DNA of 64,000 bases. Origin: Patescibacteria group bacterium. Lineage in GTDB: Bacteria; Patescibacteriota; Microgenomatia; UBA1400; PJMF01. Made by a program: the position numbers and the translations under genes. The stretch's first letter is position 1. Each line of letters opens with the position of its first letter. The stretch is from NCBI GenBank assembly GCA_023382875.1, contig JAHDXH010000001.1:18571-82570 (forward strand), read 5' to 3'. The notes beneath the pieces are model-generated. The model was given only the letters and a program-made list of their open reading frames with translations. It did no database searches and was not told the DNA's origin. This document shows positions 2,679-37,566 of the stretch, one piece after another.

Positions 2679-3336
2679 ACTGATAGCCAAACCCTCTGAT
2701 CGTTGTTAACCTTTCTTGATATTTTCCCAAGTGTTGACGAACCCTTTTTATATAAACATCTAGTGCGGTTCGTGTGGGTGTTTCTTCTTTGCAACCCCAT
2801 AGCCAATTTTCCAGTTGTGCTCTTGTTACTACTTGATCATGGTGTGCGACTAAACATTGTAAAACTTGAATCTCTTTTTTTCTTAATTTTTTGGCTTGTT
2901 GATCAATCTCTAACAAGCTTTCATTGGGATAAATTTTGATTGAGTCGATGACTAAGATTTGTCTTTGGTGATGTTTGGTTTTGTTAGTTAGAGATTCGAT
3001 GCGAAGCTTCAGTTCTTGCGAAGAAAATGGTTTGGCTAAGTAATCATCGGCGCCCTTGCTTAAACCCTCTACCCTGCTGATGGTTTCTGACTTTTGTGAA
3101 AGAATCAAAACTTTGGTTTTGAATGAGGTTTCTTTTAAATATTCGGCAATTTCTAAGCCATCACCATCTGGTAAAACTCGATCAATAATAGCGAGATCTG
3201 GCTGATGAGATTTTAAATAATCGTATGCAGAATTAATGCGTCTACAAATTTTAGTCGTCATGCCACAGTTGTCTAAAAGTTGGCCAATGGTTTGCGCCAA
3301 AGTTAAATCGTCTTCTATGATTAGAATTTCTGACAT
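2659..3336 (-). CDS. OmpR/PhoB-family response regulator. The start is likely ATG at 3336 (MSEILIIEDD). The track ORF extends to 3393.
   Basis: Receiver motifs (IIEDD, phospho-acceptor D in LAIIDRVLPDGDG, KPF). C-terminal winged helix TIRGFGYQF. The 3' end overlaps the convergent kinase gene by 20 bp. Confidence 0.8.
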   Translation of the reverse strand: MSEILIIEDDLTLAQTIGQLLDNCGMTTKICRRINSAYDYLKSHQPDLAIIDRVLPDGDGLEIAEYLKETSFKTKVLILSQKSETISRVEGLSKGADDYLAKPFSSQELKLRIESLTNKTKHHQRQILVIDSIKIYPNESLLEIDQQAKKLRKKEIQVLQCLVAHHDQVVTRAQLENWLWGCKEETPTRTALDVYIKRVRQHLGKYQERLTTIRGFGYQFKTAAN

Positions 3337-3449
3337 ATAAAATCGCTTCGATCCTAAGGGACCGTAAATTATTTTCAAGTGCCGGTGTGGCAATAATTGG
3401 CGATTTTAAAAAAACAATCTTAAATTAATCTTTCGTTTATAATGCAAGT

Positions 3450-4130
3450 ATGGCAAAAAATACATTTGAAACTCAAGAACATCATGTTAACGTGACGAAA
3501 AGCAAAGAGTACGTGTCTGAAATATTTGTAGAAGCACTCCGTAATTTTGCTGAGAGATTTGGCGAACCAAAAGTTGTTTATTATCCGAGTTCTAGCACAG
3601 ATGTTACTCCGGCTGTTGCTTTTCCTAATGCTCGAATTATTTTTCTTGACATTGATCAAGATGCGATAAATAAGCTTAAAGAAAGTGGAAAGGAAGCGGT
3701 TGAGGCTTCAGCAATAACATATGTTCCAGATGTAAAGGTAGATTTATTGATTCTATTCAACCCAGCAATTGACGCCAAGCTTCCAGCCAGGCACGTAAAA
3801 CTAGGTGGTTTTGTTTTTTGTAATAATTGGCATGCAAGTGCTAAGCAGTTGGCAGAAAATGATGAATTTGAATTAGTCGGAATAGCCATAAATGAAAAAA
3901 ATTCAAAAATAACTTTTGTCACCGGTGAGGAATCACTAGATATTTGGTCTAGTGGTATTGCAGATGTGAATGTTGATAGTGGGTTTATTTTTCAAAGAAT
4001 TAAAGAAAGTCCTCAGTCTAATGAGGAAGCAATTAAAGAATATGAAGATTTAGTTGCAGAACGGGCTAGACAAACTGATGAGCTAATGAGTCGCTACAAA
4101 GAGGTTTCAATCAGTATTGACGATATTTAA
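3450..4130 (+). CDS. hypothetical protein (226 aa, soluble)
   Basis: Clean ORF with a TATAAT-like -10 at 3436-3442. No motif I can name. Confidence 0.4.
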   Translation: MAKNTFETQEHHVNVTKSKEYVSEIFVEALRNFAERFGEPKVVYYPSSSTDVTPAVAFPNARIIFLDIDQDAINKLKESGKEAVEASAITYVPDVKVDLLILFNPAIDAKLPARHVKLGGFVFCNNWHASAKQLAENDEFELVGIAINEKNSKITFVTGEESLDIWSSGIADVNVDSGFIFQRIKESPQSNEEAIKEYEDLVAERARQTDELMSRYKEVSISIDDI

Positions 4131-11360: not shown

Positions 11361-11401
11361 TATTTTCCTCGAGTACTTATCCCCTAGTTATTTATTATAG
11401 G

Positions 11402-11430
11402 TTGACTTTTTGATCTACTAATGCTATAAT
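11402..11430 (+). promoter_or_regulatory. near-consensus sigma70 promoter TTGACT-17-TATAAT, followed by operator-like inverted repeats
   Basis: TTGACT at 11402-11407 and TATAAT at 11425-11430. Downstream palindromes TCTTTTA-tatg-TAAAAGA (about 11438-11456), GTTAAAT-c-ATTTAAC and TGGCCTGGCCA in the 5' UTR of the GC-rich gene. Confidence 0.45.
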
Positions 11431-11638
11431 ATGTGTGTCTTTTATATGTAAAAGATACATTGAAAAAGGCAGTTCCTTAAAATATCCGAAGAATTTATTT
11501 TTTTGTTTTTGTGGTCACACTGAGTGTTTTTCTGTTAAATCATTTAACAGTCGAATATTGAGTGTGGCCTCAAAACCACCGTGGCCTGGCCACGTCTCGC
11601 TAAACCTCAATTTTCAATGAAAGGTCAAGGGTAAGACA

Positions 11639-12535
11639 ATGGCAGCAGCACAGAATGTTTCTTCGGAAAAACGTGAAAGTTTCGATTTCGGCAAGTTCGT
11701 GTCGGATGTGGTCAGCAAGCTCCCCGCCCGTGATAAGGTGGCGGCTCGTCTCAACAAGATTGACCTCGTTCTGACCCCCTTCTACGCAGTGCTGATGGCA
11801 TGGGCAACCTACGCCATTGGTATCAATTTTCTTCGCTTCGGTCCTACCGACGTGGAGAGCCTGAACTATTTCGTCAGCCTGTACGCTGGACTGAGCCTCG
11901 TTGCCTTCGCTATCGTTCTGGTCGCCCTCTTCGAGAGTGTGCGCCGCAATGAAATCGGAGACATGGCGAAAGTCATCGCAGCCATCGCTATCAATTATGT
12001 GGCGATGCGTTACAACGGTACATGGCTTATGATGGTGCTGGCGTATGGCTTCGGCTTCTCGCTGGCGCACTCTGCATCCCGGAACGGTAAGTTAGACTGG
12101 ACACCGTTGGTCGCGTTCAACGCTTCCTTCATCGGTCTGGCGACCCAGATTTTTGGTTTCGCCGCCGCGTCCGTAGTCTGGCCCGTGCTGGTGGGTGTCG
12201 TGTTTCAGGCAGTAGAAGTTTTCCGCAATCAGGATTACCGCGCCGTAAGGCTGGCGGTGCCGGGGATGGTTATTGCTGTTCTCGGTCTGGTCTTGACCAT
12301 GAATCCCGTGCTGTGGATTTTGCTGGGGGCTTTGGTCAGCTTCGTTGTCGCTCCAACCGCGTTCAAGCTCTATGAGAGCAAGCACGCGAAACTGGAAGAT
12401 ACGGTCAAAAGCTGTGCCACTCCCTGCGCCGATTTCGACAATGGCATGAAGAACCTGCGGACAAACGCTGAAGCAGCAATGCTGACGCTCGTTTCGTCCT
12501 GCCTGTTTATCATCGTCATGGTCATGTTCTCGTAA
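11639..12535 (+). CDS. hypothetical 7-TM membrane protein encoded in a GC-rich island (codon usage unlike its neighbours)
   Basis: 298 aa and strongly hydrophobic. GC-rich third codon positions (ctg, gcc, ttc, cgc). No recognisable family. Confidence 0.5.
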   Translation: MAAAQNVSSEKRESFDFGKFVSDVVSKLPARDKVAARLNKIDLVLTPFYAVLMAWATYAIGINFLRFGPTDVESLNYFVSLYAGLSLVAFAIVLVALFESVRRNEIGDMAKVIAAIAINYVAMRYNGTWLMMVLAYGFGFSLAHSASRNGKLDWTPLVAFNASFIGLATQIFGFAAASVVWPVLVGVVFQAVEVFRNQDYRAVRLAVPGMVIAVLGLVLTMNPVLWILLGALVSFVVAPTAFKLYESKHAKLEDTVKSCATPCADFDNGMKNLRTNAEAAMLTLVSSCLFIIVMVMFS

Positions 12536-12559
12536 TGACTTTCACGGTCAACACAACGT

Positions 12560-12590
12560 AGGGCGCCTTCAAAGCGCCCTCGTTCTGTAT
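12560..12590 (+). terminator. intrinsic terminator-like hairpin AGGGCGC-cttcaaa-GCGCCCT followed by a T-rich tract
   Basis: Perfect 7-bp GC-rich stem at 12560-12580, then cgttctgtattt. Confidence 0.5.
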
Positions 12591-12602
12591 TTAGAGACAA
12601 AT

Positions 12603-15600
12603 TTATTGAATTTTTACCTGACTATTGATGAAGTGGAAGTGGTCCAAAACAGTTTTTGTTTCTGGCAACACTCCTTTGACAATGAAATCGTTGCCAAATA
12701 ACTTTGGTAACAAATCATTTTCTTTGGAGAATAAACTCTCTTTGAACATCATTTTTGCTTCAACTGAGCCAATCCACAATGCCTTATAGGGATTATTTTC
12801 TACCACTACATTACTAAGGTTTTCCTTAGTCAAAATGTTTTTGAATTGCTCTGGAACCTGTTGTGGTTTTTGATCCAAAGTTTCAGCATTGATTTGGTAG
12901 AAAAGTTTACCCTTTTTATCAGGTCCAACGGTGGCTGATAAATCAGCTTCTTGGTTGATTAAAGCTAAAGTTGAACTATTCACAAAATGGAAATTATCAA
13001 CCATTGAGTTGGTGGGTTTGAGAATTCCTACGACTTTGACTTTTGGCAAGCCAAAAAAATTATTCAACTCGTCCCCCACTTTGTTAATTAATTTTTCTTC
13101 AATCATCATTTGCGCTTCATTGGCACCGATGATAATTTCGTTGTCATTTAAGTTTCCTTGACCTTGGTTGAATGGCAAGCTGATTAACTCTTCTTTTTCG
13201 ACCGCCAAAAATAGTTTTGGTGCTTTATCTAAGTAAGTTATTTTGCCTTGTGAATAAGCAAAAATTTGATTAGCCGCTTTGGTAATTTTAGGATTAACAA
13301 CAGCACTACTCATTTCACTACTATTCATTTGACTACTAAATTTGGCAAATTCCACAAACATTAAACTGAAAACAACAATCATGATGATTGGTGCGACCAT
13401 AGATATATAGTTTTTGCGGTTTGGCTTGTATAAGCGCAAGAGTAATGAGTTGGCCACTACTGAGACAGAACTTAATGCCATGGCTAATCCAGCTAATTCT
13501 GGTTTAAGCACTAATCCAAAGGCAACAAAGAGTCTGGCGGCAATTGGAATACCCATGACGTTATACAAAAGGGCAAAGAATAAGTTTTGTTTAATTTTGC
13601 CAATCGTTTCTTTTGACAAGTTGATGGCGTGAACAACATCATTAAGATCATTTTTAATAATGACAATGCCACCTGTCTCCATGGCTACGTCGGTGCCTGA
13701 GCCCATAGCGATACCTAGCTCGGCTTGAGCTAATGCTGGCGCGTCGTTAACGCCATCACCTACCATGGCTACTATATGTCCTTGCGATTGAAGTTTTTTT
13801 ACTTCATTGACTTTATCTTTTGGTAAGACTTCTGCTAATACATTGGTGATGCCGACTTGTTTGGCGATCGCTTCTGCTGTTCTTTTGTTATCACCGGTAA
13901 TCATATAAATGGCTAAGCCCATTTTTTGAAGTTTTTCGATGGCTGCTTTTGAGTTTGGTTTGACGGTATCGGCAACAGCGATTAAACCTTCAATTTGTTT
14001 TTTGTTGGCCAAAATCATGACGGTTTTGCCTTGATTTTCCAGTTCATGAATTTGAGCATCAATTTCTTTGGTTGAATGTTTGAGGTATTCAGCAATCAAT
14101 TTTTTATTACCAAAATAATAAGTTTGATTATCGATTTTGGCAGTGACACCATGGCCAACAATTGCTTCAAAATCAGAAACTTTTTTGAGATCTAATTTTA
14201 AGCTTTGAGTTTTTTGATAAATGGCTTCAGCCAATGGATGCTCAGATTGTTTTTCTAAACTCCCAACAATAGTTAAGAGTTGTTTTTCATCTATTTTTTC
14301 TAAACTGATGACATCGGTAACACTGGGTTTACCAACAGTAATGGTGCCAGTTTTATCAAAAATGACAGCCGTAATTTTGCAAGCTTGTTCAAGTGGTTCA
14401 CCACCTTTGACTAGAATGCCATGTTCAGCACCTTTGCCCGTGCCAACCATAATGGCCGTAGGCGTAGCTAATCCCAATGCACATGGACAGGCAATAACGA
14501 TGACAGCTGTAAAAGCCATCAATGCTGTTGATAAGGTTGCACCTAAAACAAAGAACCAAACCACAAAAGTAAGAATGGCGATGATAATAACAGCCGGAAC
14601 AAACCAAGCAGAAATTCGATCGGCCAAATCTTGAATTGGTGCTTTGGAGCCTTGGGCTTCTTCAACTAATTTAATGATTTGTGCCAAGGTAGTTTCACTA
14701 CCAACTCTCGTGGCGGTGAATTCAAAACTACCAGTTTTGTTGATGGTGCCACCAGCAACTTTGTCGCCGGCCTGTTTGGCTACCGGTAAACTTTCGCCGG
14801 TCAACATTGATTCATCGACTGACGATGAGCCTTTGGTAATTTTGCCATCGACAGGAATTTTTTCTCCCGGTCTAACCAAAATTACATCGCCAACTTTAAC
14901 TTCATCGATCGGAATATCTGTAGTTTTATTGCCTCTCACAACTCTAGCTGTTTTTGCTTGAAGTCCCATTAGTTTTTTAATGGCAGTTGAAGTTTTACCT
15001 TTGGCTTTAGCTTCCAAAAGTTTTCCCAAAATCACGAACGTGATTAGGAAAGCAGCGGTTTCAAAATATAGTTCGGGAATTTTTGCGCCTTCAATACCAA
15101 TAACCGATTCAGTGATAAAAGCATAACGAAGGAAATTGAATAAGCTATAAAAATAGGCCACCGAAGTGCCAATAGCAATCAAACTATCCATGTTAAAAGT
15201 TTTCATCCGTAAGGCAGACCACATGCCTTGGTAGAAACTTTTACCAACAATGAATTGAATTGGGGTAGTAAGGATTAAAGAAATAATGCCTACATAGGGC
15301 AAAAGCAGTTTAGCGCCAAAAAAGTTGGGCACAAAATCAAAAATCATGAAGTAAGCCATGGGCAAACTCAAAATCAAACTAAAGATAAATTTTTGCAGTT
15401 GGTTTTTTTCTTCGTGATGGTGATGGTGAGCTGAGTCAGCTTCAATTTGTTGAACGTTGTCACCTAGTTCCTGTGCATGGTAACCAGCTTTTTTGACAGC
15501 CTCAATAATCGTTTCTGAGTTGGTGTCATTTTCTGCCACAACCTGCGCTTTTTCATTAGCATAATTAACATGCGCTTCTTTAACTCCAGGAACTTTTTTA

Positions 15601-21301: not shown

Positions 21302-21649
21302 CTACTTCAATTTTTCCGGTGGGAAGCGTTGGTCGAGGCTGCCTCTGCCTCTAGTATTGAGGGTAATACCCCCATTTTCCGCATAAGCTGTCATCACTTG
21401 CCACACGCTCTTCGCTTTGCTCAGAGATTCAATCGGATATGACAGTCGCCAAACAGTTATTGTGTGTTCAAAGTTGGCAACGCCACTCGTAATCAAATTC
21501 TGCAAAACCAGAATTTTGAAGTTGAGATATTTCTTCTCTCGTTCTGATTTCCCTGCCTTTCTTGCTTGGTATTCGTCCATCAGCAATTTGAGTTGCTTGA
21601 CGCGATACGCCGGCACTCTGGGCAGGACGATATCTGGATACGCGACCAT
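21302..21649 (-). CDS. orphan hypothetical protein (115 aa) with locally elevated GC
   Basis: ORF with its own terminator. About 45% GC versus about 36% around it. No recognisable motif. Confidence 0.35.
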   Translation of the reverse strand: MVAYPDIVLPRVPAYRVKQLKLLMDEYQARKAGKSEREKKYLNFKILVLQNLITSGVANFEHTITVWRLSYPIESLSKAKSVWQVMTAYAENGGITLNTRGRGSLDQRFPPEKLK

Positions 21650-37478: not shown

Positions 37479-37566
37479 TGGCGGAGGGGGCGGGATTCGA
37501 ACCCGCGGCAGCTTTCACCGCGGCGGTTTAGTAAACCGCTGCACTAGGCCACTATGCGACCCCTCC
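37479..37566 (-). tRNA. class II (long variable arm) tRNA, Ser-type, with anticodon loop TT-ACT-AA (apparent anticodon ACU)
   Basis: Minus-strand read GGAGGGG-TC-GCA-TAGTGGCCTAG-TGC-A-GCGGT-TTACTAA-ACCGC-[16-nt variable arm]-GCGGGTTCGAATCCCGC-CCCCTCC-G-CCA. Perfect acceptor and T stems, CCA encoded. One nucleotide away from a canonical tRNA-Ser(GCU) loop. Confidence 0.7.

What the first reader, a model, noticed from the sequence alone, without database searches (positions are those of the whole stretch)
11361..12600. About 1 kb GC-rich island (about 55-58% GC) encoding a 7-TM membrane protein, inserted between maf and the copper locus
Seen in sequence:
- Base composition switches abruptly near 11600, from about 36% GC to a GC-rich sequence with GC-biased third codon positions (ctg, gcc, cgc, ttc). 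It returns to AT-rich after a GC-rich terminator hairpin (AGGGCGC..GCGCCCT, 12560-12580).
- The island carries one ORF (298 aa, 7 TM, no recognisable family).
- Its promoter is near-consensus (TTGACT-17-TATAAT, 11402-11430).
- The 5' UTR is about 190 nt and studded with palindromes (TCTTTTA-tatg-TAAAAGA, GTTAAATcATTTAAC, TGGCCTGGCCA), suggesting tight regulation.

Inference: horizontal acquisition from a high-GC donor (or, less likely, an assembly chimera). It is placed next to metal-resistance genes. No integrase or repeats flank it.
Basis: partly seen in the sequence, partly recalled or inferred. Interest (0 to 1): 0.65.

Follow-up and report, generated by a model that had tools for sequence, protein, structure and literature searches.

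The report
Riboregulated GC-rich membrane-protein gene, not foreign
The GC-rich "island" is a gene native to one small clade of ultrasmall (CPR/Paceibacterota) bacteria: an orphan 9-helix membrane protein, always at this spot, driven by a conserved strong promoter and a previously undescribed structured leader RNA, with its coding part swapped between relatives by recombination yet staying oddly GC-rich.

Summary
ORF 11639-12535 has 54.5% GC and GC3 0.68, against a window GC3 of 0.33 ± 0.05 (z = 7). The promoter, terminator hairpin and lack of any protein family are also confirmed.

The interpretation (recent transfer from a high-GC donor, or a chimera) is not supported. An exhaustive profile search of 1.84 billion proteins finds only about 20 relatives. 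Every one with readable context lies directly after maf in the same Paceibacterota synteny. Almost all carry the same GC3 excess (+7 to +35 points).

The locus is one conserved transcription unit:
- a near-consensus promoter;
- a roughly 200-nt leader RNA with strong covariation (27 of 37 pairs compensatory; no Rfam family), plus a linker-to-codons 7-10 helix;
- the coding sequence;
- a covarying terminator.

The coding block is discordant with its flanks (44-83% identity where neighbours are 93-100%; in one case more similar than its flanks). It is mosaic and under purifying selection, so old alleles are being exchanged by homologous recombination.

The CDS folds more stably than synonymous permutations in 11 of 11 alleles. 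The cause of the GC3 excess and the protein's function remain unresolved.

The parts
11402..11430 (+). Sigma-70-type promoter TTGACT-17-TATAAT with an extended -10 TG. It is conserved in all 13 leaders, including alleles whose protein is about 20% identical.
   Evidence: DNA identity over 11376-11466 is 92-98% where maf synonymous sites are saturated.
11437..11470 (+). Leader helix P1 (11437-11443/11464-11470 outer, 11446-11449/11457-11460 inner). It starts at the inferred transcription start, so it is a 5'-terminal stem-loop.
   Evidence: RNAalifold. Pair counts: helices 1-2 are 93-100% paired, and 7 of 11 pairs show double-sided changes. The single-sequence MFE reproduces it. The TSS position is inferred from the -10 element.
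11472..11482 (+). Invariant unpaired linker motif G..C.TTAA.A (GTTCCTTAAAA in the window).
   Evidence: Invariant columns in the 13-leader alignments.
11485..11493 (+). 5' strand (UCCGAAGAA) of a long-range helix that pairs with codons 7-10 of X.
   Evidence: cognate versus deranged duplex energies, p = 5e-5; held-out L013.
11505..11577 (+). Leader helix P2, a 26-bp hairpin (11505-11531/11551-11577) with a variable tip. Its lower stem includes part of the T-run.
   Evidence: 20 of 26 pairs with double-sided change; 91.7% of cells paired. Conserved G.U pairs indicate a sense-strand RNA. CM scores are 92-132 bits on the + strand and at most 30 bits on the - strand.
11580..11594 (+). P3, a short GC-rich hairpin CGTGGCC-T-GGCCACG. 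A hairpin occurs at this position in several alleles but its sequence and length are not conserved.
11619..11631 (+). Ribosome-binding region (GAAAGG..AAGGG, 7 nt before the ATG).
   Evidence: Read directly from the sequence. GAAAGG is conserved in the leader alignment.
11639..12535 (+). CDS of X: 298 aa, 9 TM helices, N-terminus in and C-terminus out. It belongs to an orphan family with conserved cytoplasmic motifs ESxRRNE and HSASRxGKLDWTP. GC3 is 0.68.
11659..11667 (+). 3' strand (UUCUUCGGA, CDS nt +21..+29) of the long-range helix.
12553..12592 (+). Intrinsic terminator: stem 12560-12566/12574-12580 with flanking extension, then a U-rich tract. It is shared with the convergent copA. The stem covaries across the family.
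11495..12610 (.). Divergent, recombining block. Its identity to relatives is decoupled from the flanks in both directions.

Best explanation
This is not a foreign insertion. It is a clade-specific, self-contained transcription unit of a sub-lineage of Candidatus Paceibacterota (CPR), held at one chromosomal position directly after maf.

A near-consensus promoter transcribes a leader of about 200 nt. The leader folds into a 5'-terminal stem-loop (P1), an invariant single-stranded motif and a 26-bp hairpin (P2). A long-range helix joins the linker to codons 7-10 and encloses the ribosome-binding site and the start codon. Downstream lie the gene for an orphan 9-TM inner-membrane protein, whose conserved residues line the cytoplasmic face, and a strong terminator.

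Shown:
- conserved synteny;
- the covarying leader and terminator;
- purifying selection on the protein;
- old alleles of the block 11495-12610 being exchanged and mosaicised between relatives by homologous recombination, using the conserved promoter/leader on one side and copA on the other.

Inferred: the unit is built for abundant, long-lived and translationally gated mRNA. The evidence for this design is the strong promoter, the 5' stem-loop at +1, the start region enclosed by RNA pairing, an over-structured CDS and a strong terminator. On this reading the family-wide GC3 excess is maintained in place by selection acting on the mRNA (folding or stability), not by foreign origin. The protein's biochemical role is unknown. 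My best guess is an abundant envelope or transport component whose cytoplasmic loops bind a partner or substrate.
For: Lineage and exclusivity:
- Maf-based loci name Ca. Paceibacterota/Parcubacteria.
- The word-indexed search finds 13 homologs. Exhaustive HMMER over 1.84e9 representatives finds 12 clusters. None are in viral contigs, phages or plasmids.

Synteny:
- The order tgl-epimerase-maf-X is seen in every context read.
- More distant CPR genomes with 44-48% Maf identity lack both the synteny and X.

Composition:
- X GC3 exceeds maf GC3 by 7-35 points in all lineages.
- The shift is to both G- and C-ending codons.
- It is flat along the gene and uncorrelated with residue conservation.
- It is confined to the CDS, while the non-coding part of the same divergent block stays at 0.25-0.47 GC.

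Recombination:
- X versus neighbour identity is 83 vs 97-100, 72 vs 97-99, 44 vs 93-96 and 93 vs 93.
- L005 vs L015: maf dS 0.008 and X dS 0.92. Window vs L001: X dS 0.49, below the neighbours' 1.1-1.9. Omega is 0.12-0.19.
- Quartet topology switches along X and copA.
- X is the divergence extreme within 20 kb.

Leader RNA:
- 37 pairs, 92.9% of cells paired (shuffles 77%, slid partners 40-56%).
- 27 pairs with double-sided change (shuffles 17; 0 of 500 reach the observed value).
- The CM finds one hit per locus, always upstream of X. The held-out L013 scores 77 bits.
- No Rfam family matches.
- MFE z = -5.1.
- Long-range helix: cognate -11.45 versus deranged -8.39 +/- 0.68 kcal/mol, p = 5e-5, at CDS +15..+21 in 8 of 10 groups. 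The held-out L013 agrees.

Terminator: the stem covaries across the family.

mRNA structure: CDS MFE versus synonymous permutations gives z = -2.4 to -5.4 in 11 of 11 alleles (mean -3.7), against a mean of -1.2 for 10 control genes (MWU p = 3e-4).

Topology: 19 K+R residues lie on the N-terminus and even-numbered loops, and none on the odd-numbered loops.
Against: The mRNA-level explanation of the high GC3 is inferred, not shown.
- No specific base pairs are conserved inside the CDS.
- Two of the ten control genes also reach z of about -2.5 to -3.1.
- The window holds no ribosomal-protein or other clearly high-expression genes, so codon usage cannot be compared with them.
- Polarised synonymous changes in the closest alleles run 33 GC->AT to 16 AT->GC. 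The neighbours' per-site rates predict exactly this (0.71 expected, 0.67 observed), so GC3 may be decaying and not at equilibrium. Parsimony bias makes this test unreliable.
- The L018/L022 sub-family has only a small GC3 excess and lacks the T-run and the long-range helix.
- A second fast-evolving gene (21302-21649) also has raised GC3. That hints at a general link between recombination or import and GC, not something specific to this mRNA.
- RNAalifold did not recover the long-range helix, because the alignment is out of register there.
- The TSS, expression level and protein function are untested.
Confidence: 0.6

Rival explanations
1. The GC3 excess is a by-product of the locus being a recombination hotspot. 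GC-biased gene conversion, or more effective selection for GC in highly recombining DNA, raises GC wherever alleles are repeatedly exchanged.
For: X is mosaic and discordant with its flanks. GC3 is uniform along the gene and independent of residue conservation, as expected for a regional, codon-blind force. Both G- and C-ending codons rise. A second discordant gene (21302-21649) also has raised GC3. A positive correlation between recombination rate and genic GC is reported for most bacteria (PMC11879095).
Against: GC is not raised in the non-coding part of the same divergent block (leader 0.29-0.37; P2 to ATG 0.25-0.47), nor in the copA 3' end that also recombines. Reported bacterial effects are a few points, not 20-35, and PMC11879095 argues for selection over gBGC. 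It does not explain the excess folding stability found even in low-GC3 alleles.
Confidence: 0.2
2. Source-sink import. X is compositionally native in unsampled, higher-GC relatives. Alleles are repeatedly imported into low-GC genomes through the conserved flanks and then decay towards AT.
For: Alleles clearly move between lineages. There is a net GC->AT flux of 33:16 in the closest alleles, matching the neighbours' per-site rates. GC3 differs among close alleles (0.58-0.70). The clade includes genomes with up to 45% GC (L007). The L018/L022 alleles look ameliorated.
Against: Every context read (14 proteins from more than 12 projects) is a low-GC contig (0.32-0.45). Even in the most GC-rich genome (L007), X exceeds its host's GC3 (0.58 versus 0.48) and is below the window's 0.68. 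No homolog turned up elsewhere in about 15 billion proteins. The flux test is biased by parsimony.
Confidence: 0.13
3. Rare-codon throttle. G/C-ending codons are rare in this genome and are kept in X to slow translation of a polytopic or potentially toxic membrane protein. This would mirror the rare-codon-rich wzx/wzy genes of O-antigen loci (from my own knowledge).
For: X uses the codons least used by the other 63 ORFs in the window: CTG 55% vs 6%, AAG 67% vs 19%, AGA 0% vs 44%. It is a 9-TM protein.
Against: This is at odds with a near-consensus promoter and features that would stabilise the mRNA. A dedicated tRNA-Gln(CUG) exists in the window, so G-ending codons have cognate tRNAs. The low-GC3 alleles L018/L022 function without it.
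Confidence: 0.05
4. One reading: a recent horizontal acquisition from a distant high-GC donor, or an assembly chimera.
For: Atypical composition with sharp borders. Codon usage resembles that of a genome of about 55% GC.
Against: X is present at the same locus with the same composition in all relatives that share the synteny. There is no homolog outside the clade or on mobile elements. There is no integrase, tRNA target or flanking repeat. Promoter, leader and terminator co-evolve with the gene. The junctions are reproduced in independent assemblies from more than 12 projects.
Confidence: 0.02

Closest known systems
Replacement-type hypervariable loci exchanged through conserved flanks (for example O-antigen wzx/wzy regions, or 'replacement flexible genomic islands'); comparison from my own knowledge
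   Same: The chromosomal position is fixed in all strains. Alleles are far more divergent than the flanks. History is mosaic and discordant. Composition deviates from the genome. The product is a polytopic membrane protein with no detectable family.
   Different: It is a single gene, not a glycan cluster. Its composition deviates upward in an AT-rich genome. External loops are only 2-6 residues and the conserved face is cytoplasmic, so a role as a phage or immune target is doubtful. It carries its own conserved leader RNA.
5'-UTR stabiliser and regulator elements of abundant envelope-protein mRNAs (for example the E. coli ompA 5' UTR, or 5'-terminal stem-loops that protect against RNase E/J); from my own knowledge
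   Same: A long leader lies ahead of a membrane-protein gene. There is a stem-loop at the extreme 5' end, a strong promoter and a strong terminator.
   Different: The sequence and fold are unrelated and match no Rfam family. It has a 26-bp second hairpin, an invariant 11-nt single-stranded motif and a UTR-to-codon 7-10 helix enclosing the start site. Any effect on mRNA stability is untested.
Riboswitches, RNA thermometers and other cis-acting leaders that occlude the initiation region
   Same: It is a sense-strand 5' leader with covarying helices, conserved unpaired nucleotides and a helix that encloses the SD and AUG.
   Different: There is no known aptamer fold, no ligand clue from the downstream gene (an orphan protein) and no terminator-type expression platform. 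L018/L022 lack the long-range helix.
Borrelia vls locus (a GC-rich antigenic-variation locus in an AT-rich genome); from my own knowledge
   Same: It is a variable gene whose GC content is far above the genome's, and it is associated with recombination.
   Different: There are no silent cassettes or partial copies in the 64-kb window. Variation is between genomes, not within a clone. The product is an integral membrane protein, not a surface lipoprotein.
Classical horizontally acquired genomic island
   Same: Atypical GC content and codon usage with sharp borders.
   Different: There is no patchy distribution among relatives that share the synteny, no mobility genes or att repeats, and no donor homologs.

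Membership tests
Recently acquired genomic island (HGT) | Atypical base composition or codon usage relative to the host | tested here: met
   GC 0.545 versus 0.372. GC3 z = 7.1.
Recently acquired genomic island (HGT) | Patchy presence or absence among close relatives at that locus | tested here: not met
   X is present after maf in every syntenic relative, down to 68-73% Maf identity.
Recently acquired genomic island (HGT) | Mobility signatures (integrase, tRNA target, flanking direct repeats) | tested here: not met
   No repeats of note. The bracketing inverted repeat is not conserved. The neighbours are maf and copA. The nearest tRNA is 6 kb away.
Recently acquired genomic island (HGT) | Homologs in a plausible donor lineage or on mobile elements | tested here: not met
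   Only about 20 clade-restricted homologs in 1.84e9 representatives. None in viral contigs, phages or plasmids.
Replacement-type hypervariable locus (allele exchange via conserved flanks) | Same position in all genomes, with alleles much more divergent than the flanks | tested here: met
   X 44-83% identical where flanks are 93-100%. No blastn alignment to L011 inside an 80-95% background.
Replacement-type hypervariable locus (allele exchange via conserved flanks) | Phylogenetic discordance or mosaicism showing recombination | tested here: met
   dS is decoupled in both directions. Quartet topology switches along the region.
Replacement-type hypervariable locus (allele exchange via conserved flanks) | The product is surface-exposed and variation concentrates in the exposed parts | tested here: not met
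   External loops are 2-6 residues and fairly conserved. The most variable part is the cytoplasmic N-terminus. The topology rests on the positive-inside rule, so it is an inference.
Cis-regulatory structured leader RNA (riboswitch-like) | Conserved secondary structure supported by compensatory changes | tested here: met
   27 of 37 pairs show double-sided changes. 0 of 500 shuffles reach the observed value, and slid controls give 6-11.
Cis-regulatory structured leader RNA (riboswitch-like) | Located in the 5' UTR in sense orientation, and always linked to the same gene | tested here: met
   The CM finds one hit per locus, directly upstream of X. Scores are 92-132 bits on the + strand and at most 30 bits on the - strand.
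Cis-regulatory structured leader RNA (riboswitch-like) | An expression platform coupling the fold to the start site or to a terminator | tested here: inconclusive
   A linker-CDS helix encloses the SD and AUG (p = 5e-5). It was not recovered column-wise and is absent in L018/L022. No terminator follows P2.
Cis-regulatory structured leader RNA (riboswitch-like) | Specific ligand or signal binding | not testable with these tools
   Needs in-line probing, SHAPE or reporter assays.
Cis-regulatory structured leader RNA (riboswitch-like) | Match to a described RNA family | tested here: not met
   Rfam 15 at gathering threshold and at E <= 10 gives only chance miRNA-like hits on the hairpin.
Diversity-generating retroelement target, or vls-like cassette system | A template repeat or silent partial copies of the variable gene nearby | tested here: not met
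   blastn and tblastn of X against the 64-kb window find no other copy. The divergence spans the whole gene, not one short variable region.
Integron gene cassette | An integrase next to the array, and an attC hairpin 3' of the ORF | tested here: not met
   No integrase in the neighbourhood. The covarying hairpin is 5' of the ORF, and its G.U pairs fit sense-strand RNA.
Known membrane-protein families and folds | Significant sequence-profile or fold similarity | tested here: not met

The most novel reading that the evidence does not exclude
The leader is a new class of sensing RNA (a riboswitch or thermosensor) specific to a CPR clade. It gates translation of an abundant, clade-defining envelope protein through a UTR-to-coding-region helix. 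Selection on the mRNA itself (folding and longevity), not on the protein or on codon translation, holds a hyper-allelic gene 20-35 GC3 points above its genome over long evolutionary time. That would be a clean natural case of RNA-level selection overriding genomic mutation bias.
Probability: 0.15. Interest if true: 0.8.

Novelty: new variant of a known kind. Interest (0 to 1): 0.62.

Why it matters
Atypical GC with sharp borders is routinely taken as proof of horizontal transfer. Here that reading is wrong: the anomaly belongs to a native, syntenic gene and persists across alleles that are saturated at synonymous sites.

The locus offers three things:
- A new, well-supported structured leader RNA in the Candidate Phyla Radiation, a group with very few described RNA regulators.
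- An orphan membrane-protein family that marks one Paceibacterota sub-clade and appears built for strong, controlled expression. That makes it a candidate for the poorly understood envelope biology of these episymbionts.
- A compact natural test case for what maintains GC content in bacteria (selection on mRNA, biased gene conversion or repeated import). Coding and non-coding parts of the same recombining block behave differently here.

Tried and rejected
- Overlapping antisense gene as the cause of the high GC. Antisense stop-free runs are no longer than in synonymous-codon shuffles, across 13 alleles.
- A conserved RNA structure inside the CDS. Alifold on a codon alignment gives 62 weak pairs, and compensatory counts are no better than codon-periodic slides.
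- A shared regulon with the copper genes. The leader palindrome and the CM motif occur nowhere else in the window.
- The 19-nt inverted repeat bracketing the unit (10945/12790) as a recombination site. It is not conserved.
- A conserved functional partner in the convergent ~130-aa gene. It is absent from the window's sub-clade and unrelated to CopA's C-terminal extension.
- A DGR or silent-cassette mechanism. There are no extra copies of X.
- A phage or plasmid reservoir. None found.
- Polarised substitution test of amelioration versus equilibrium. It was confounded first by the higher-GC outgroup and then by parsimony bias, so it is inconclusive.
- Column-wise covariation for the long-range helix. 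MAFFT could not keep the strands in register, so I relied on the cognate/non-cognate test.
- The metagenome scan added only one locus.
- The first 280-s folding job timed out.
Full report
OBSERVATION

The compositional island is real. In 200-nt windows, GC rises from 0.34-0.42 to 0.50-0.59 between about 11600 and 12600, then falls back to about 0.33. The richest 900-nt window has GC 0.549, against a background of 0.372 ± 0.027. The anomaly coincides with one ORF, 11639-12535 (+), 298 aa, here called X. Its GC1/2/3 values are 0.57/0.39/0.68. The other 63 ORFs of the window have GC3 0.327 ± 0.049, so X is a 7-SD outlier.

The shift is towards both G- and C-ending codons. CTG is 55% in X against 6% in the rest of the window, AAG 67% against 19%, TTC 82% against 25%, and AGA 0% against 44%. 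At four-fold sites, G is 0.33 against 0.11.

The promoter TTGACT-17-TATAAT (11402-11430, 11 of 12 matches, extended -10 TG) and the hairpin at 12560-12580 are present. X matches no Pfam, NCBIfam, PADLOC or PHROG model.

One correction: the protein has nine, not seven, membrane helices (AF2 model with pLDDT 78 and pTM 0.76; hydropathy).

IT IS NOT A FOREIGN INSERTION

A word-indexed search of 5.8 billion clusters found 13 homologs, all unnamed metagenome proteins. An exhaustive HMMER profile search of 1.84 billion representatives found only 12 clusters.

I read the genomic context of 14 family proteins, from more than 12 independent sequencing projects. In every case the gene lies directly after maf in the order transglutaminase-like / epimerase / maf / X. 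It is usually followed by the convergent copA-cupredoxin-ArsR/YHS-FTR1 block. One 660-kb contig has X without an adjacent copA.

A Maf-based scan of GTDB species genomes names the lineage as Candidatus Paceibacterota/Parcubacteria (CPR). The closest named MAG (L022) again has X after maf. CPR genomes with only 44-48% Maf identity lack both the synteny and X. No relative occurs in viral contigs, phage genomes or plasmids. There are no flanking repeats, integrase or tRNA target. One bracketing inverted repeat is not conserved.

The GC anomaly is a property of the family. X exceeds the GC3 of the adjacent maf by 7-35 points in every lineage. For example, L019 has 0.52 against 0.19, L016 0.58 against 0.28 and L021 0.49 against 0.25. 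The excess is weakest in L018/L022, whose X has GC3 0.35-0.38. The repeated independent assembly of both junctions also excludes a chimera.

THE CODING BLOCK IS SHUFFLED BETWEEN RELATIVES

Protein identity of X is decoupled from its neighbours:

| Comparison with window | X identity | Neighbour identity |
|---|---|---|
| L015 | 83% | 97-100% |
| L005 | 72% | 97-99% |
| L011/L012 | 44% | 93-96% |
| L001 | 93% | 93% |

At DNA level the divergent block runs from about 11495, inside the leader, to about 12610, the copA stop. The promoter and the first 60 nt of the leader are 92-98% identical.

Between L005 and L015, maf and the epimerase are almost identical (dS 0.008-0.015), but X has dS 0.92. 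Between the window and L001, X has lower dS (0.49) than its neighbours (1.1-1.9). Omega for X is 0.12-0.19, which is purifying selection but weaker than in the neighbours (0.02-0.06). dS values above 1 are saturated and only indicative.

Quartet-informative sites switch topology along X and on into copA. Over 20 kb, X is the extreme of discordance in both directions. There are no partial copies or template repeats of X in the window.

The pattern is therefore exchange and mosaicism of old alleles by homologous recombination. It is not in-situ positive selection, a DGR or a cassette system.

A NEW STRUCTURED LEADER RNA

Aligning the maf-X spacer from 13 distinct loci shows that several features are conserved even where X is only about 20% identical: the -35 element, the extended -10 element, an 11-nt motif G..C.TTAA.A (11472-11482) and a T-run.

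RNAalifold predicts two helices. P1 is 11437-11443/11464-11470 with an inner stem at 11446-11449/11457-11460. P2 is a 26-bp hairpin, 11505-11531/11551-11577.

Controlled pair counting gives the following:

| Measure | Observed | Shuffles | Slid partners |
|---|---|---|---|
| Cells paired | 92.9% | 77.2% (0/500 reach observed) | 40-56% |
| Pairs with double-sided change (of 37) | 27 | 17.2 (0/500 reach observed) | 6-11 |
| Covariation score | 0.577 | 0.278 | ≤0.174 |

Conserved G·U pairs indicate an RNA read in the sense of X. So does the asymmetry of covariance-model scores, 92-132 bits on the + strand against at most 30 bits on the - strand. The model finds exactly one hit per locus, always just upstream of X. 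It also recovers L013, which was not in the seed, at 77 bits. It finds nothing else in the 64-kb window.

Rfam has no matching family. The window's own leader folds into P1, P2 and P3 with z = -5.1. P1 begins at the inferred +1 position, but the TSS is inferred from the -10 element.

A third, long-range helix links the linker just 5' of the T-run to codons 7-10. In the window this is 11485-11493 UCCGAAGAA pairing with 11659-11667 UUCUUCGGA. Other alleles use different complementary pairs at the same place:

| Allele | Linker strand | CDS strand |
|---|---|---|
| L001 | CUGCAGGC | GCCCGCAG |
| L011 | GUCUGUG | CACAGAC |
| L014 | UUCUGUGG | CCACAGGA |
| L016 | CCCUGUG | CGCAGGG |
| L041 | UUACAGCAG | CUGUUGUAA |

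Each allele's linker binds its own early CDS better than other alleles' CDS. Mean energy is -11.45 kcal/mol, against -8.39 ± 0.68 for deranged pairings (p = 5e-5, 10 allele groups). The CDS strand starts at +15..+21 in 8 of the 10 groups. The held-out L013 fits, at -12.2 kcal/mol and position +20.

RNAalifold did not recover this helix, because MAFFT loses register in the indel-rich N-terminal region. L018/L022 lack it. I therefore rate it as supported but not proven. It would close a domain containing P2, P3, the Shine-Dalgarno sequence and the AUG, which is a plausible translational gate.

The terminator stem downstream of X also covaries across the family and is followed by GUUUUG.

THE PROTEIN

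The family shows invariant or near-invariant polar motifs: ESxRRNE, AYGFGFxLAHSASRxGKLDWTP, RLAVPG and EAAMLTL.

Positive-inside counting puts 19 K+R residues on the N-terminus and the even-numbered loops, and none on the other four loops. This gives a topology of 9 TM helices with the N-terminus in and the C-terminus out. External loops are only 2-6 residues, and the most conserved segments are on the cytoplasmic face. That fits poorly with a variable surface antigen or phage receptor.

No sequence or fold relative was found. The afdb50 library was unavailable. Function remains unknown. I infer an abundant envelope or transport component whose cytoplasmic loops engage a partner or substrate.

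WHY IS IT GC-RICH?

Rejected:
- An antisense overlapping gene.
- Translational-accuracy selection. GC3 is flat along the gene and uncorrelated with conservation, rho = -0.02.
- Recent HGT (see above).

In favour of selection at the mRNA level:
- The GC rise is confined to the CDS. The non-coding part of the same recombining block stays AT-rich.
- The native CDS folds more stably than synonymous-codon permutations in 11 of 11 alleles (z = -2.4 to -5.4, mean -3.7). This includes the low-GC3 alleles. Ten control genes have a mean of -1.2 (p = 3e-4).
- The rest of the unit also looks designed for a stable, abundant transcript.

Against, or unresolved:
- No specific CDS structure is conserved.
- Two of the ten controls are also fairly negative.
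- A second discordant gene has raised GC3.
- Polarised synonymous changes run 33 GC→AT to 16 AT→GC. That fits decay after import, but it is also what parsimony bias produces.

Recombination-associated GC enrichment is a documented correlation in bacteria, although its cause is debated and its effects are small (PMC11879095). I therefore keep gBGC or hotspot effects (0.20) and source-sink import from unsampled GC-richer relatives (0.13) as live rivals.

VERDICT

The HGT and chimera interpretation is not supported. What is there is a native, clade-specific, riboregulated membrane-protein transcription unit. Its coding block is hyper-allelic and persistently GC-rich. The leader RNA and the protein family are undescribed.

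Noticed in passing
window 21302-21649 (-): A 115-aa gene with no Pfam family is the second GC3 outlier of the window (0.53). It is only 77-78% identical to its orthologs in L001/L005, while its neighbours are 99% identical to L005. It is missing or replaced in L007 and L012. So a second fast or discordant gene also has raised GC3.
   Followed up: partly
window ~3300-4100 (ORF 3450-4130, 226 aa): Another low-identity spot against L005 (0.67-0.70 in a 0.9-1.0 background). It does not align to L001 or L011, so it is a further variable locus in the same 20 kb.
   Followed up: no
window 12603-13400 (-), C-terminus of the 1023-aa CopA: CopA carries a C-terminal extension of about 250 aa made of two ~125-aa repeats (..IGxxEAxMM..VxGxL..hFHFxNS), with no Pfam hit. 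In more distant relatives CopA is 754-791 aa and lacks it.
   Followed up: partly
L013 1114-1506, L014 1484-1876, L016 2658-3050, L018 5121-5531, L019 2121-2513, L022 7798-8208 (all -): A well-conserved gene of about 130 aa (one TM helix plus an SCIYCGYANG...YSCAIKH Cys/His motif, no Pfam family) lies convergent to X in these lineages, and in the copA-less 660-kb contig. It is absent from the window's sub-clade.
   Followed up: partly
window ~12600 and ~13400 (within copA): Quartet-informative sites switch from grouping window+L015 to grouping window+L005. Recombination breakpoints therefore extend into copA, and X is not the only mosaic segment.
   Followed up: partly
L011 9962-10003 and L012 (same allele, two JGI samples): The ATG that aligns with the start codon of the other alleles (MSDNKTPQ...) is out of frame with the annotated 279-aa product, which starts 39 nt downstream. 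This is either a real frameshift or uORF arrangement, or a shared sequencing error.
   Followed up: no
L011, L014, L016, L021, L007 leaders (equivalent to window ~11485-11515 and ~11575-11590): Two copies of C(C/U)CUGUG (one in the linker, one just after P2) and two of CACAG/CGCAGG (at the base of P2 and in the early CDS) allow mutually exclusive pairings. This is a possible switch. The window's own group does not have it.
   Followed up: no
window 37479-37566 (-): ARAGORN calls an 88-nt tRNA-Ser with anticodon ACT. An unmodified A34 would be unusual for a bacterial tRNA-Ser.
   Followed up: no
L041 (= L040) ~306-320: An in-frame ATG four codons upstream (MSEYMKQ...) resembles the MSE... N-termini of other alleles, so the annotated start of P0015 may be too far downstream.
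   Followed up: no
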